Source of the DNA: Ructibacterium sp.
GTDB taxonomy: Bacteria > Bacillota > Clostridia > Monoglobales > Monoglobaceae
Assembly (NCBI GenBank): GCA_045587405.1
Contig: JAZNCG010000029.1
Location: 677 to 64,676, forward strand
Length of the DNA stretch: 64,000 nt
Direction: 5' to 3'
Shown here in pieces: positions 3,932 to 40,322 of this stretch. The notes beneath the pieces are model-generated. The model was not told the origin of the DNA. It saw only the letters and a list, made by a program, of their open reading frames with translations, and searched no databases. Each line of letters begins with the position of its first letter. The first letter of the stretch is position 1. Position numbers and translations under genes: made by a program.

Positions 3932-4300
3932 CTATTCAGTTACAGGTGCATAGGCTGCATCGACAGCTTCCTCGACAGCCTTCCTCTCTTTCAGGAAGTC
4001 CACATAGGCATCAATGGCAGCTGTCGCTTTCTCGCCCGTGAAAATACCCTCCTTTGCGGAGTTGTAGTCGTTCATGAGCTTCTGCTCAACCCCATTGCCC
4101 CAGAGTGCGTTGATTACCGCCTCAGTTGTCGTTTTAGGGCTTCCGTTCTCCACCCACACCTCATAGTATTCGTATGACTTCTCTTCCTCTCCCTCCGGAT
4201 TCTTGCGAGTGACCTCCTCAAAATCCCAGCGGAAGATATGCACTCCCGTCTTATGCTGCTCTAAGATGGGAAGCATGATGTTGCTGTTTGATTTGTTCAT
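3932..4300 (-). CDS. Hypothetical phage protein (possible tail-fibre chaperone)
   Basis: 122-aa ORF overlapping the RT 3' end by 50 nt. Confidence 0.6.
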   Translation of the reverse strand: MNKSNSNIMLPILEQHKTGVHIFRWDFEEVTRKNPEGEEEKSYEYYEVWVENGSPKTTTEAVINALWGNGVEQKLMNDYNSAKEGIFTGEKATAAIDAYVDFLKERKAVEEAVDAAYAPVTE

Positions 4301-5306
4301 AAATCTTCGGTCTTAAAATTTTACATGTTAAACGGTCTGAATCACTGTATTTAGCCCAGCCGAGCCATGATGCAATCCGCATCTTGTATTGCCTGTCATC
4401 AAGGTCTGTCCGATGCTTCAGCTTCGCACAAGCCTTGCAGAAATTCTTCTTGATTCCCTTGCGGATTCTTGTTTCACAGTGGTAGAATACAAAGCCCACG
4501 AAGTCAAGACCTCTACCGCTCTTGTCTCTGTGATTCTCCGCAATCCTGAACACCTGCCAATTACCTTTCATCTCAAGCTTCAGCTCGTTACGCAGGTACT
4601 CGGCACATTCCACCTGCAACTGATGACATTCCTCCTTTGTCCGTGCGAATATCACGATGTCATCCGCATACCTGAAGTAATGCTTGACCTTTTTCCCCTC
4701 CTTCAGCCAATGGTCGAAATAGGTGAGGTAGAGGTTTGCGAAATACTGTGACAGATAGTTTCCGATTGGAATACCATCTGCGCTGTCGATAATCTCATCA
4801 AGCAGCCACAGCAGTTCCGGGTCCTTAATCTTTCTGCGGATTATCATCTTCAATATCTCATGGTCTATTGACGGATAGAACTTGCGGATGTCGAACTTCA
4901 GACACCACCTCGTAGCCTCTCGGTCACGGATAATCTTCTGAACATTCTTTCGACAGCCACCTATGCCCCTGCCGTCAATGCAGGAGTATGAATCAGATGT
5001 GAACACCTTCATCCAAATAGGTTTCAGGACATTCATTATTGCGTGATGTACTATCCTGTCAGGATAATACGGGAGCCTGTAGATAAGTCTTTCTTTCGGC
5101 TCGAAGATTGTGAATACATCATAATCCGATGTCTTAAATGTGTGATTCTTCAGAGCTTCATGCAAATTCAGGATATTAGCTTCCCTATCCCTATCATGAT
5201 GCCTTACGCCATAGGTCTTCAGCTTGCCCTTACGGGCGTTCATGTCCGCAAGCTGCAAGTTCTCTACAGATATAATCTGCTGGTATAGATTTCCTATGCG
5301 TTTCAT
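4251..5306 (-). CDS. DGR reverse transcriptase
   Basis: YFRYADD catalytic motif, GIPIGNYLSQ DGR signature, adjacent TR/VR pair. Confidence 0.97.
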   Translation of the reverse strand: MKRIGNLYQQIISVENLQLADMNARKGKLKTYGVRHHDRDREANILNLHEALKNHTFKTSDYDVFTIFEPKERLIYRLPYYPDRIVHHAIMNVLKPIWMKVFTSDSYSCIDGRGIGGCRKNVQKIIRDREATRWCLKFDIRKFYPSIDHEILKMIIRRKIKDPELLWLLDEIIDSADGIPIGNYLSQYFANLYLTYFDHWLKEGKKVKHYFRYADDIVIFARTKEECHQLQVECAEYLRNELKLEMKGNWQVFRIAENHRDKSGRGLDFVGFVFYHCETRIRKGIKKNFCKACAKLKHRTDLDDRQYKMRIASWLGWAKYSDSDRLTCKILRPKIYEQIKQQHHASHLRAA

Positions 5307-5410
5307 TGTTTGCTTTTCTTAGTCGGAGTCTTCGGTTTCCCTACCAACACCTTTCTGAACAACTATTTTTCACCAAGAGGTGAGGCCCTTGTCTGTGTTT
5401 GTAATTTTCT

Positions 5411-5527
5411 AAAGCTAAGCTGAGAGCCGATGTTCGCATTCGTATTCGAGGGAGCGTTATTCGAGTTCGAGTAAGCGAGACCGGCATTCGCCCTGTTATT
5501 CGCATTACCGCCAAACAAAACAGCCCT
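5411..5527 (-). ncRNA. DGR template repeat (TR)
   Basis: Intergenic, 117 nt, 10 AAY codons in the target frame; differs from 5981-6097 only at TR adenines. Confidence 0.96.
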
Positions 5528-5551: not shown

Positions 5552-5905
5552 TTACTCGAAGTAATATCTGTTTCCCTGTCTTCTCAGAGTGACCCTGCGA
5601 GGAAACTTGTTCAGCTCTTTAATCTTCTTCAGGACATACAGAATGTCCGCACTGCCTGTAAAGACCTTTCGGGCTGATGATTCAGGGTCATTCAGATTAT
5701 CCTTGATTTTGAATATCGTCCGTCCCGTCTTACCTTCCGCCTTGCTGAATTTGGTCGGCACATCCTCGATGAAGTCAATCACCCAGAAAGTCATATTTAC
5801 CAATTCGCTCTGCTTTTTCTCGGAGCAGTTGAAATACCGGCTGTTCTCATCTCTTGGGATATTCAAGAAATCGAGGGAGCCATCATCTTCTCTAACATTT
5901 TCCAT
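5552..5905 (-). CDS. DGR accessory-position protein (not obviously Avd)
   Basis: Lies between target gene and TR; 117 aa with a beta-rich pattern. Confidence 0.7.
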   Translation of the reverse strand: MENVREDDGSLDFLNIPRDENSRYFNCSEKKQSELVNMTFWVIDFIEDVPTKFSKAEGKTGRTIFKIKDNLNDPESSARKVFTGSADILYVLKKIKELNKFPRRVTLRRQGNRYYFE

Positions 5906-5943
5906 GTTTCAAATTCGTTTGCTGTTAATAGTGGATTTCGTGA

Positions 5944-5960
5944 GGGGGCATAAAGCCCCC
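5944..5960 (-). promoter_or_regulatory. Hairpin downstream of VR1 (DGR target-recognition stem-loop)
   Basis: GGGGGC-tttat-GCCCCC, 20 nt 3' of the VR. Confidence 0.7.
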
Positions 5961-5971
5961 GTGAGTTCGGA

Positions 5972-7315
5972 TTACGGAATAAAGCAAAGCCGAGAGCCGA
6001 AGTACGCAATCGTATTCGAGGGAGCGTAATGCGAGTGCGAGTAAGCGAGACCGGCACCCGCCCCGCCATTCGCATTACCGCCAAACAAAACAGCCCTTAT
6101 GCCTGTGTTTGCTACATAGTGGTAATCTGACCAATAGGAAGTAGAGCCTGCACCAACTTCAGAAGCCATTATCTCACCCTTGCTGCCAAAGATGAGTTTC
6201 TTTACATAGCCCTCAGTACCTGCCTCTTTACCGATGTTAGCCCAGCCGGATATCGAAGTGTCGCCAGCTGCAAACTTGGCAGGGTCATCGGTGGTGTACA
6301 CCGTTCTGTCTGTCACACTTGCTGCATCTACTCTGATACCATCAAGGAACTTCCAGATGTGACCGAAAGGCAACTCAATACCCCTGTACCGGTTGACATG
6401 CACAAGGCTGTCGGATGTTACGAGGGTTACGCCATTGTTCACATATTCAGATGCAGATACATTGACCTCACCTGAATCATCACCGAGGGCGTTGCTGGTA
6501 CCTGTTATTACGAATGGATAATATCCGTTGAAAGCTTCCCAATTCGATACATTGGTAACGCCTGTGCCGAGACCTCCCTGACGGAATCCGTTTGCATCTC
6601 TTGAGGTGTTCACTGCTGCCTGAGAGTTGCGGTTTGCATACTCAATCATGTAGAGCCAGAAGATAACCTTGTACTGCTCGTAAGGCAGGATATTCCACTT
6701 CGTATTGGCTGTATTTCTCTTTCTCGCAGCTGTACGGAACGCAGTCATAGAGGTTGCAGTGGTCGGCTTCACTCCAGCGATAGAACAGAGTTTTCCGTTA
6801 GCATCCCTGTACGCCTCATAAGCTCCCACATAGAATCTTGGGATGTAATGTGCGCCCTCGAAATAATCAAGAGAAACAAGGGCATTTCTGTTGCGGATGT
6901 CTCCCGAATAAGCTTGGTCCGGGAATCTCCACCATGCACCCGGAATCTCCACCATGACCTGTCCCTTTGCACCTGAAAGGTCGTGGTCTTCCCATCCTCC
7001 TGAAAGGTACTCCACAACATTTCCGTCATCATCGAGAAGACATCCACGCATGAGAGATTGCACCGGCAGGGTCTGGTGCATCTTGGCGTTTCCGACACGC
7101 AAGAGTGCAACCTGACCAGCTGTGAAAGCCGGATTTGTCACGGTACCTGTAAACCACTGCACACCGTAACACTTATCTGCTCCTTTGAACATCGCAGAAG
7201 CATCAAAGGCTGAAGGCTCGCCCGTTGTAGGGTCGAACAATACCAATGCCTTTCCTGTCAAAGCATCTTCTGAAGATGCCACAGTCAAATCTTTTACATC
7301 AAATTCTGTTGCCAT
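5972..7315 (-). CDS. DGR target 1: tail-tip receptor-binding protein with C-terminal C-type-lectin-like fold
   Basis: Ends RAVLFGG...FGSRLCFIP, containing VR1; follows the large tail protein. Confidence 0.88.
   Translation of the reverse strand: MATEFDVKDLTVASSEDALTGKALVLFDPTTGEPSAFDASAMFKGADKCYGVQWFTGTVTNPAFTAGQVALLRVGNAKMHQTLPVQSLMRGCLLDDDGNVVEYLSGGWEDHDLSGAKGQVMVEIPGAWWRFPDQAYSGDIRNRNALVSLDYFEGAHYIPRFYVGAYEAYRDANGKLCSIAGVKPTTATSMTAFRTAARKRNTANTKWNILPYEQYKVIFWLYMIEYANRNSQAAVNTSRDANGFRQGGLGTGVTNVSNWEAFNGYYPFVITGTSNALGDDSGEVNVSASEYVNNGVTLVTSDSLVHVNRYRGIELPFGHIWKFLDGIRVDAASVTDRTVYTTDDPAKFAAGDTSISGWANIGKEAGTEGYVKKLIFGSKGEIMASEVGAGSTSYWSDYHYVANTGIRAVLFGGNANGGAGAGLAYSHSHYAPSNTIAYFGSRLCFIP
5981..6097 (-). 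repeat. DGR variable repeat VR1
   Basis: 13 mismatches to TR over 117 nt, all at TR adenines. Confidence 0.96.
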
Positions 7316-38568: not shown

Positions 38569-39180
38569 CTACTTTCTAATCAGGAGAAAATCAAGGAAAA
38601 TGTCAGCGAACTGCTTCGCTGCGTAGATGGCGAGGTCTCGTGTCTTAAAGCAAAGCCGAGAGCCGAAGGACGCAGGCGTACGCGAGGGAGCGTAAAGCGA
38701 GAGCGAGAAAGCGAGAACGGCAGGAAGACCATAGAGAGACATATCGACATCTGTTGGTACTTCATCGGAACACAATTCACCTTTTGTCGGCTTATGGTCA
38801 TATAGATAATACCAGACATAATAGACCGTAGTCTTGCAGTCTTGCGGATTCTCCCAGCCCTCATTAAGTGCTGCACAGATAATACGGCAGGCGAGGTAAG
38901 AAACTATGTCACAGGATTCTTTGTCGCTGATGGTACCTTCTTTCGTCATCATGTCACGGATAGCTATGTACTGCTTCACAAGCACATGATTATAGCCGAG
39001 GGCATTTAGGGCATCGTTGAAAGTCTTGATGCGTTCCGTCACGGGAACCTGAAGATTGGACTTGCCGAACATCTCTTCGAGAAGATTCTTGATGTAAGGA
39101 GTAACCTCATCATGGTTACTATGATAAGCTTGTCTTGCCTGTGCAAGGGCTGTTGCTGGGTTAAATGAGTTCTTTTCCAT
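38569..39180 (-). CDS. DGR target 2 (remote): non-structural phage protein with a near-C-terminal variable region
   Basis: ERIKTF..ALNEGW..GSRLCFKT family pattern; contains VR2. Confidence 0.85.
   Translation of the reverse strand: MEKNSFNPATALAQARQAYHSNHDEVTPYIKNLLEEMFGKSNLQVPVTERIKTFNDALNALGYNHVLVKQYIAIRDMMTKEGTISDKESCDIVSYLACRIICAALNEGWENPQDCKTTVYYVWYYLYDHKPTKGELCSDEVPTDVDMSLYGLPAVLAFSLSLYAPSRTPASFGSRLCFKTRDLAIYAAKQFADIFLDFLLIRK
38647..38716 (-). repeat. DGR variable repeat VR2
   Basis: 70 nt aligned without gaps to TR 5411-5480; 15 mismatches, all at TR adenines. Confidence 0.92.
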
Positions 39181-39202
39181 GTTGTTTTGTTGTTAGTAGT
39201 GA

Positions 39203-40322
39203 TTATTTGAACATTACTGTTATTCCATACCTATCTCTTTCTATTTCCACCCACTCTATTTCAACACCATAGTCATCTTTGACCGATTCCAATGCTGCTA
39301 TTAACATCTCGCTATCAATAGCTGAAATTCCATATCTTGGGGAATTGAGGTCATAGTCAAAAGATACAGATGTAGAGCCATGAGACCAGCCGAGAACATA
39401 GCCGTCTATTATCTCCTGCAACAAGCCTTTCACTGTATTCTGTTTCAGTTTATAAGCCCAAATCTTCTTGGCTATTGCCACCTTGATTCTAAAGATTATC
39501 TTTCTCATAAATAACTATACCTCCTTTCTTTCCTCGACCTTGAACACGGTCCAGATGAATGTCATCGGCTCAACAGCACATTGATAACCGGGAACAAATT
39601 CCCTCGTTTTGAAATAGTCCAAAAGTTTCTGCACGGTCTCTTCCCGTGTGAACTCAGCTTTATGGATATGGAACACTCCACCGTGTTCTCTCGACTGCTC
39701 TGAGCTGTCGATATTGAAGAGCTGCCTGAGTTCACTGATGGCCGTCTCTCTTGTGATTTCCTTTTTCTTTGATTGCGTTTTACTCATATTGTCAGAATAA
39801 TGTTTGGCTGTCGTAGATGTCCTTGTATTCGGATATTTGAGACAGCAGTTTCTTGCATTTGGCTATCAGGGCATCTGTACTCTCGACCTTTTCGCCATCG
39901 TCAGGCTCGTACCCTCCGTGATATTTCCTGATTCTTTCCATCTCCCGTTTCACATATTGCTCAACGATGCAAAGCTCATTGAAGACTGCTTCCTTTTCGG
40001 AGCCAAAGCTCTCTTTGTGCTTGAGAGAGACACCGCTGCCACCGCCCGAATGATTGACATTGTAATAGTGAGCTGCTATCCATTTCCCGTCAAGATTTAT
40101 GGCGGTCTTTATTTCCGCACACCAGCCGGACTTTCCAAACTCTATTTTGTTTGGATTCAGGCATATATCATTGATATTAAACTGAAAGCCATGAAGCTCT
40201 ACGACAGGTTCTCTTGAGCTATCGTTGGGATGTTCTTTGAGCCAAGCCCACCACTCTTCACGGGTAAATGTGCGTCCGAGTGCCAATGATGTAAAAAATA
40301 CTTCCTTGCTCATGGCCATCAT
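39203..40322 (-). CDS. Three hypothetical proteins (39203-39508, 39515-39787, 39792-40322)
   Basis: Tightly packed co-directional ORFs. Confidence 0.6.

What the first reader, a model, noticed from the sequence alone, without database searches (positions are those of the whole stretch)
38569..39180. Second, remote DGR target 33 kb from the retroelement, in a non-structural gene
38647-38716 aligns without gaps to TR 5411-5480. All 15 mismatches fall on TR adenines (15 of 17 changed), and all 53 non-A positions are identical. It is read in the same frame as VR1 (TR LAYSNSNNAPSNTNANIGSQLSF; VR1 LAYSHSHYAPSNTIAYFGSRLCF; VR2 LAFSLSLYAPSRTPASFGSRLCF). Both VRs share the 3' end CGGCTTTGCTTT, against TR CAGCTTAGCTTT (IMH/IMH*-like). 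The 203-aa protein sits in the replication/middle operon, has no signal peptide and continues 25 aa past the VR. One TR therefore appears to hypermutate both a virion adhesin and an intracellular protein, possibly a diversified binder of host defence factors.
Basis: partly seen in the sequence, partly recalled or inferred. Interest (0 to 1): 0.9.

Follow-up and report, generated by a model that had tools for sequence, protein, structure and literature searches.

The report
Remote second DGR target, non-structural gene
This gut phage's mutagenic retroelement rewrites its tail protein and also a small, apparently cytoplasmic protein encoded 33 kb away among the early replication genes; the site is real and actively diversified, but the same protein family was already reported as a distal target in Bacteroides phages and its function is still unknown.

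Summary
VR2 is 38646-38724 on the minus strand, 79 nt. It differs from the TR at 17 adenines and at one private non-A change. Chance is excluded: P is about 2e-13 for mismatches falling only on adenines.

The refuting test failed. Seventeen near-identical proteins from other metagenomes carry 17 different VR2 haplotypes. They are 23% identical at the 10 TR-adenine codons and 97.8% identical elsewhere. In contigs of four public runs, every variable VR2 site is a TR adenine.

The 203-aa target belongs to phrog_11581. Its relatives in 29 of 30 tested IMG/VR phage records, and in cultured phage BI-TP1, also match a TR beside an RT with almost only adenine mismatches. The gene always lies in the recombination, replication or DNA-modification module.

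This is not new in kind. Benler 2021 described this distal, non-structural target in Quimbyvirus (LoVEphage group). Dahlman 2025 found four more prophage species, and Cornuault 2019 showed experimentally that a second VR is diversified in phage Shimadzu. This scan has also reported it on at least eight other genomes.

Function is inferred from context only. No solved structure, C-type lectin folds included, matched a good model. Verdict: new member of a known kind, moderate interest.

The parts
38569..39180 (-). Target gene 2: 203-aa protein P0001 of family phrog_11581, with no Pfam domain
   Evidence: ORF and translation. phrog_11581 E 3.4e-36 over residues 16-203. No Pfam hit. 556 or more homologues of about 200 aa.
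38646..38724 (-). VR2, 79 nt, codons 153-178. It has 17 mismatches to the TR at adenines and one private non-A change at 38717.
   Evidence: Natural variation occurs only at TR-adenine sites.
38646..38666 (-). Invariant 3' block of VR2. It is identical in VR1 and differs from the TR at two adenines (38652, 38657). This is IMH-like against IMH* in the TR.
   Evidence: BI-TP1 shows the same pattern.
38604..38621 (-). Perfect 7-bp stem with a 4-nt loop, 25 nt 3' of VR2, inside codons AAKQFA. It is a possible target-recognition hairpin.
   Evidence: Such hairpins are not enriched across the family, so its role is uncertain.
5410..5527 (-). Template repeat (TR), 118 nt
4251..5306 (-). DGR reverse transcriptase, 351 aa. 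It is intact and carries the IGNYLSQ and YADD motifs.
   Evidence: PF00078 E 3e-18 and phrog_1423 E 2.7e-119.
5552..5905 (-). 117-aa accessory-slot gene between VR1 and the TR (phrog_19665). It has no Pfam match, Avd included.
5980..6097 (-). VR1, 118 nt, 13 mismatches to the TR, all at adenines
5972..7315 (-). Target gene 1: 447-aa tail protein (phrog_5302), downstream of the tape measure gene and a 2157-aa distal tail protein

Best explanation
VR2 is a genuine, currently active second target of the window's single DGR.

Inferred mechanism. The RT (4251-5306) copies the TR RNA into adenine-mutagenised cDNA. That cDNA acts in trans on any site carrying the shared 3' recognition block, here about 21 nt, identical in VR1 and VR2, possibly helped by a nearby hairpin. 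At VR2 the homology is only 79 nt. The cDNA therefore rewrites 10 codons (153, 158, 160, 162, 163, 167-169, 171, 172) in a surface loop of a 203-aa soluble protein.

The protein. It belongs to phrog_11581, a large family specific to Bacteroidota phages. This is the same family as the distal DGR target of Quimbyvirus/LoVEphage. The gene is co-transcribed with the early recombination, replication and DNA-modification genes. The most likely role is a cytoplasmic protein with variable binding specificity, used inside the infected or lysogenic cell in phage-host or phage-phage conflict. It could be an anti-defence binder or an adaptor to a host factor.

What is shown: the TR/VR relation, adenine-only natural hypervariation, family-wide co-occurrence with an RT and TR, and the non-structural gene context.

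What is inferred: cDNA homing in trans, cytoplasmic location, and the ligand-binding and conflict role.

My odds: real and active DGR target 0.95; non-structural and intracellular about 0.7; specifically anti-defence about 0.3.
For: TR/VR2 relation: 15 of 15 mismatches fall at adenines over 70 nt, and 17 of 18 over 79 nt. P is 1.9e-13.

Natural variation: there are 17 distinct VR2 haplotypes in 17 proteins that are 89-96% identical to P0001. Identity is 23% at the 10 TR-A codons and 97.8% elsewhere. The residue sets are those reachable by changing A only, for example NTC giving I/F/L/V and NCG giving T/A/S. DNA of seven contigs varies only at A sites. In contigs of four runs from four studies, all 13 variable VR2 sites are TR adenines. 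Contigs break inside VR2, and run X1 holds two alleles.

Family: phrog_11581 E 3.4e-36. There are 484 relatives in IMG/VR. An RT 55-72% identical to P0003 is present in 33 of 41 records, and in 25 of 28 that are at least 90% complete. In 29 of 30 records a TR beside the RT matches the homologue's C-terminal DNA with almost only adenine mismatches. Cultured phage BI-TP1 gp84 has the same arrangement.

Context: YqaJ/RecE-like exonuclease, SSB, an SNF2 helicase-methyltransferase, an acetyltransferase and a PAPS reductase lie on the same strand. In relatives the gene sits between RecT or an SbcC-like protein and RecE or helicase loaders.

Literature: PMC8008677, PMC12629997 and bioRxiv 10.1101/575076.
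Against: RT-dependence is not shown for this phage. Variation between samples proves past diversification, not its rate.

The two alleles in run X1 could be two co-resident strains.

There is no proteomic, localisation or expression evidence. The RNA-library contig over the gene may be DNA carry-over.

No conserved partner or effector gene was found, and no domain fusion. Nothing therefore points to a particular ligand.

The downstream hairpin is not conserved in the family.

Two fairly complete RT-less records carry the gene without any TR. The protein is therefore not strictly dependent on diversification.
Confidence: 0.85

Rival explanations
1. The protein is a virion component encoded outside the structural module, such as a second adhesin, a decoration protein or an ejected protein. 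VR2 would then broaden adsorption like VR1.
For: It carries the same TR-templated binding loop as the tail protein. One GenBank record, phage Versailles, labels the homologue 'tail protein'.
Against: In the window, in LoVEphage/BI-TP1 and in the roughly 50-kb IMG/VR group, the gene lies inside the recombination, replication or DNA-modification operon and on that operon's strand. The 'tail protein' label most likely comes from the TR-derived 39 residues, which are the only part that aligns with the tail target. There is no attachment-domain homology.
Confidence: 0.12
2. The protein is an intracellular host-range adaptor rather than an anti-defence factor. In this reading the variable loop recruits or neutralises a variable host replication or recombination protein. 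The phage could then replicate in the new hosts that the diversified tail lets it enter.
For: In relatives the gene is typically flanked by RecT, a RecE-like exonuclease and DnaD/DnaC-like helicase loaders. It is diversified from the same TR as the receptor-binding protein.
Against: In LoVEphage/BI-TP1 the neighbours are methyltransferases, a MutY-like protein and a tRNA ligase (PMC8008677). In the window they are small unknown ORFs and a helicase-methyltransferase. There is no direct evidence for any ligand.
Confidence: 0.25
3. The protein is a prophage-encoded sensor or exclusion factor expressed in lysogens. A diversified binder would recognise incoming competitor phages, analogous to the hypermutated antigen sensors of bacterial conflict systems.
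For: These are temperate phages: a repressor and switch lie at 49-51 kb, and some IMG/VR relatives are proviruses. Bacterial DGRs do diversify putative sensors (PMC10907252, listed).
Against: The gene sits mid-operon among lytic early genes, not beside the repressor. There is no fused or adjacent effector.
Confidence: 0.12
4. VR2 is a relic: a TR-like segment retained by descent that is no longer rewritten.
For: It matches only the 3' 79 nt of the TR. This copy has one non-A substitution, at 38717.
Against: There are 17 of 17 distinct haplotypes confined to A codons within an otherwise 97.8% identical gene. Sites vary only at adenines across four studies. Variation also reaches codon 153 at the 5' edge.
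Confidence: 0.03

Closest known systems
Distal second DGR target of Quimbyvirus / LoVEphage ('ORF 80/84', Benler et al. 2021, PMC8008677), found in four further double-VR prophage species by Dahlman et al. 2025 (PMC12629997)
   Same: It is the same protein family. The IMG/VR-type member P0154 is 37-42% identical over its full length to the LoVEphage, PV4-TP1 and BI-TP1 proteins, and P0001 is 28-29% identical. BI-TP1 gp84 fits the published description of the Quimbyvirus ORF by its neighbours. In both, one TR serves a tail target beside the RT and a roughly 200-aa gene far away in a non-structural module, with adenine-only variation.
   Different: The phage is different. It is a roughly 50-kb siphovirus-like genome with no nucleotide match in GenBank phages. 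VR2 is truncated to 79 of 118 nt. [quoted passage not shown] The gene is on the same strand as the DGR.
Roseburia phage Shimadzu VR2 in orf43/44 (Cornuault et al., bioRxiv 10.1101/575076)
   Same: A phage DGR has a tail VR1 and a second VR in a gene of unknown function. Both were shown experimentally to be rewritten, in 2% of reads in vitro and about 47% in mouse viromes. VR2 alleles were under weaker selection.
   Different: The host is a Firmicutes bacterium. Homology of orf43 to P0001 was not tested here. The family was found only in Bacteroides and Phocaeicola phages among GenBank phage records.
Bordetella phage BPP-1 DGR (mtd-avd-TR-brt)
   Same: Adenine-specific TR-to-VR transfer, an IMH-like 3' block that differs from the TR, a hairpin downstream of the VR, and an RT with IGxxxSQ and YxDD motifs (what the sequence shows).
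   Different: BPP-1 has a single target, adjacent to the RT, with the VR at the extreme C-terminus of a C-type lectin fold. Here there is a second target 33 kb away, 25 residues follow the VR, the accessory gene has no Pfam match (Avd included), and no lectin fold was detected.

Membership tests
DGR variable repeat / target gene | TR-VR pair whose mismatches fall at TR adenines | tested here: met
   15 of 15 over 70 nt and 17 of 18 over 79 nt. P is 1.9e-13.
DGR variable repeat / target gene | Intact DGR-type reverse transcriptase next to the TR | tested here: met
   P0003 matches PF00078 at E 3e-18 and phrog_1423 at E 2.7e-119. The IGNYLSQ and YADD motifs are visible in the translation.
DGR variable repeat / target gene | Natural hypervariation confined to TR-adenine codons | tested here: met
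   17 of 17 haplotypes are distinct, with 23% identity at those codons against 97.8% elsewhere. Contigs of four runs vary only at A sites.
DGR variable repeat / target gene | IMH at the VR 3' end that differs from IMH* of the TR | tested here: met
   The 21-nt 3' block is identical in VR1 and VR2. It has two fixed differences from the TR that never vary. BI-TP1 shows the same pattern. Function is inferred.
DGR variable repeat / target gene | Hairpin or cruciform just downstream of the VR | tested here: inconclusive
   Perfect stems lie 25 nt after VR2 and 20 nt after VR1. In 48 family genes, stems of 6 bp or more are no commoner there than in control windows, 12.5% against 11.3%.
DGR variable repeat / target gene | VR displayed on a C-type lectin fold | tested here: inconclusive
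   The model has pLDDT 84.6 and is mostly helical, with the VR loop disordered. No solved structure matched; the best Z is 5.0, from generic helical proteins. hhalign against the tail target aligns only the TR-templated 39 residues. Benler et al. report a lectin domain by HHpred (PMC8008677).
DGR variable repeat / target gene | RT-dependent mutagenic homing | not testable with these tools
   This needs an RT knockout in a cultured lysogen.
phrog_11581 / Quimbyvirus-type distal DGR target | Full-length profile match and homology to the LoVEphage/BI-TP1 protein | tested here: met
   phrog_11581 E 3.4e-36. tblastn to BI-TP1 and LoVEphage gives E 5e-11, and 3e-28 through the family member P0154.
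phrog_11581 / Quimbyvirus-type distal DGR target | Location in a non-structural early module, remote from the RT cassette | tested here: met
   33 kb from the TR, within the early operon. Relatives show the same.
phrog_11581 / Quimbyvirus-type distal DGR target | Cognate TR in the same genome | tested here: met
   Met in the window, in 29 of 30 IMG/VR records and in BI-TP1. Exceptions: two RT-less records.

The most novel reading that the evidence does not exclude
phrog_11581 may be a new, largely helical, non-lectin scaffold on which DGRs display a variable loop inside the cell. Bacteroidota phages would then run an intracellular, antibody-like repertoire that is co-diversified with the tail adhesin from one template. 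Its purpose would be to bind variable host defence or replication proteins, making it a second, post-entry host-range determinant.
Probability: 0.25. Interest if true: 0.75.

Novelty: new member of a known kind. Interest (0 to 1): 0.4.

Why it matters
This adds a well-documented case, from a phage lineage unlike LoVEphage, to a published but unexplained phenomenon: phage DGRs that also hypermutate a small non-structural protein.

The family-wide figures obtained here have one clear implication. There are 2,742 clusters at 50% identity. An RT is present in 25 of 28 near-complete genomes. A matching TR is present in 29 of 30 records. The gene always sits in the recombination or replication module. 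Together these indicate a conserved, dedicated second arm of these DGRs rather than an oddity.

The protein's ligand and role remain an open question. That question can be addressed in cultured relatives such as BI-TP1, PV4-TP1, the LoVEphage isolates and Versailles.

Tried and rejected
- Nucleotide search of the locus against GenBank phages found no match.
- A scan of IMG/VR for close relatives with the single protein found none. The alignment query worked.
- The records behind loci L005, L009 and L010 could not be searched for their TRs, because they are not held.
- Fold searches with two models (PDB Foldseek, VIA-align wide, ESM Atlas, BFVD) returned only the family's own uncharacterised phage proteins or generic helical matches with Z of 5.5 or less. 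No lectin fold appeared.
- A profile search against PDB sequences found nothing. The Atlas feature search found nothing usable.
- No Pfam domain was found in longer family members.
- No gene neighbour is conserved across all three phage groups.
- The dual-coding hairpin idea was tested across the family and not supported.
- All sequencing runs offered are Logan contigs, so per-read frequencies of VR2 variants could not be measured. The RNA-library contig over the gene cannot be told from DNA carry-over.
- Complex prediction was not used, because no specific partner is claimed.

Full report
**Observation.** The minus-strand segment 38647-38716 aligns without gaps to TR 5411-5480. There are 15 mismatches, all at TR adenines (15 of the 17 A), and 53 of 53 non-A positions are identical. 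The repeat finder and a search of the whole 1.8-Mb assembly give exactly three copies: TR 5410-5527, VR1 5980-6097 and VR2. VR2 scores E 1.1e-12. The chance that 15 mismatches all land on the 17 adenines of 70 positions is 1.9e-13. One correction applies. Homology continues to 38724, so VR2 is 79 nt. The extra stretch holds two more adenine changes (TR codon AAT) and one non-A change at 38717, which only this window's copy carries. VR2 therefore matches only the 3' two-thirds of the 118-nt TR.

**The retroelement.** The order on the minus strand is tail target (5972-7315, phrog_5302, VR1 at its end), a 117-aa gene with no Pfam match, Avd included (5552-5905), the TR, then the RT (4251-5306). 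The RT matches PF00078 and phrog_1423, and the IGNYLSQ and YADD motifs are visible in its translation. It closes a siphovirus-like late operon: small and large terminase, portal, major head protein, tape measure and a 2157-aa distal tail protein.

- A 90%-identity cluster of 147 sequences surrounds P0001.
- Seventeen near-identical proteins, P0001 among them (the others 89-96% identical to it), carry 17 different VR2 haplotypes.
- Pairwise identity is 23% at the ten codons that hold adenines in the TR (153, 158, 160, 162, 163, 167-169, 171, 172) and 97.8% elsewhere.
- The residues seen are those reachable by changing adenines only. Examples are I/F/L/V at the ATC codon, T/A/S at ACG and Y/F/C at TAC.
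- DNA of seven metagenomic contigs varies only at adenine sites.
- In contigs of four public runs from four studies, all 13 variable VR2 sites are TR adenines.
- Contigs break inside VR2, and run X1 holds two overlapping alleles. That suggests heterogeneity within one sample, although two co-resident strains are not excluded.

**Recognition block.** The last two TR adenines (38652, 38657) are changed identically in VR1 and VR2 and never vary. This fits an IMH in the VRs against an IMH* in the TR. BI-TP1 shows the same pattern. Perfect hairpins lie 25 nt after VR2 and 20 nt after VR1. Across 48 family genes, however, such stems are no commoner downstream of the VR than in control windows. I treat the hairpin as unproven.

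**The target protein.** P0001 has no Pfam domain. It matches phrog_11581, a family of unknown function, at E 3.4e-36. The family is large:
- more than 556 hits of about 200 aa;
- 2,742 clusters at 50% identity;
- 484 relatives in IMG/VR.

One 90% cluster holds 3,672 distinct sequences, which is itself a sign of hypervariation. Longer members carry no recognisable extra domain.

Among 41 viral records with a homologue, 33 encode an RT 55-72% identical to this one. The figure is 25 of 28 for records at least 90% complete. In 29 of 30 tested records, the homologue's C-terminal DNA matches two sites beside the RT. One of these behaves as the TR, with mismatches almost only at its adenines. Both 76-81-nt and 105-112-nt forms of VR2 occur. 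Two fairly complete records have the gene but neither an RT nor a TR.

**Context.** In the window, the gene lies mid-operon on the early strand. It is 6 nt from the next gene. The same operon holds a RecE-like exonuclease, phrog_3657, SSB, an SNF2 helicase-methyltransferase, an acetyltransferase and a PAPS reductase. In the roughly 50-kb IMG/VR group and in phage Versailles, the gene sits between RecT, SbcC-like, metallo-hydrolase or NinB genes and RecE-like exonuclease, DnaD/DnaC-like loader, helicase or replication-initiator genes. In BI-TP1 it sits among methyltransferases, a TIGR02757 protein and a tRNA ligase. No single neighbour is conserved across all groups. The N-terminus has no hydrophobic signal-like stretch.

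**Structure.** With 111 diverse sequences, AlphaFold2 gives pLDDT 84.6 and pTM 0.78. The fold is mostly helical. The 110-150 stretch is well-predicted but irregular, and the VR (154-171) is a low-confidence loop followed by two C-terminal helices. No solved structure matched. The best Z is 5.0, from generic helical proteins, and Foldseek found nothing at E of 0.001 or better. Only the family itself appears in the Atlas and in BFVD. Profile comparison with the tail target aligns only the 39 TR-templated residues. Whether the scaffold is a very divergent C-type lectin, as Benler et al. inferred by HHpred, or something else stays open.

**What is known already.**
- Benler et al. 2021 (PMC8008677) described the Quimbyvirus DGR as having two targets. 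One is structural. [quoted passage not shown] - The Quimbyvirus and LoVEphage papers each report their phage as about 95% identical to the same B. dorei CL03T12C01 prophage.
- BI-TP1 gp84 fits the published description of that ORF by its neighbours. It belongs to the family, and its VR matches the BI-TP1 TR with adenine-only mismatches.
- Dahlman et al. 2025 (PMC12629997) found four prophage species with a second, distal VR near counter-defence genes.
- Cornuault et al. (bioRxiv 10.1101/575076) showed experimentally that both VRs of Roseburia phage Shimadzu are rewritten.
- Roux et al. 2021 state that their survey could not detect remote targets.
- This scan has reported the same arrangement on at least eight other genomes, with the same verdict.

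**Verdict.** 'Intracellular binder of defence factors' remains an inference from neighbourhood. The main alternatives are an intracellular host-factor adaptor, a lysogen-expressed exclusion sensor and, less likely, a virion component. The finding is a new member of a known kind. Its value lies in the open functional question and in the family-wide regularity documented here.

Noticed in passing
window 39186-39540: In run X8 a 22-kb contig replaces this 353-nt stretch with 361 unrelated letters. The stretch covers the small ORFs just upstream of the VR2 gene. Related contigs carry ORFs of 92 and 110 aa there instead of 90 and 101 aa. This looks like a swappable cassette slot beside the target gene.
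   Followed up: no
IMG/VR loci L097, L103, L105-L108, L112, L116, L118, L119: About a third of the RT homologues in related phages show one in-frame TGA (or TAA) inside the match. This recalls the frameshifted, overlapping-ORF RT that Benler et al. described in Quimbyvirus.
   Followed up: no
window 5552-5905 (-): The gene in the accessory slot between VR1 and the TR (117 aa, phrog_19665) has no Pfam match, Avd included. BI-TP1 has no gene at all between its tail target and the TR.
   Followed up: partly
L129:5001-5582 (ON453897.1, Bacteroides phage Versailles): The family member is annotated 'tail protein' although it lies between NinB and the replisome organiser. The label probably comes from the TR-templated segment it shares with true tail targets.
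   Followed up: partly
L061 (G021) and L039 (G008): Two viral records, estimated 100% and 93% complete, carry a phrog_11581 gene but have no RT and no TR-like repeat. The protein can therefore persist without a cognate DGR.
   Followed up: partly
window 38604-38621 and 5931-5947: Perfect hairpins lie downstream of VR2 (7 bp) and VR1 (6 bp). BI-TP1 has a 7-bp stem at a similar place. Even so, the family as a whole shows no enrichment over control windows.
   Followed up: yes
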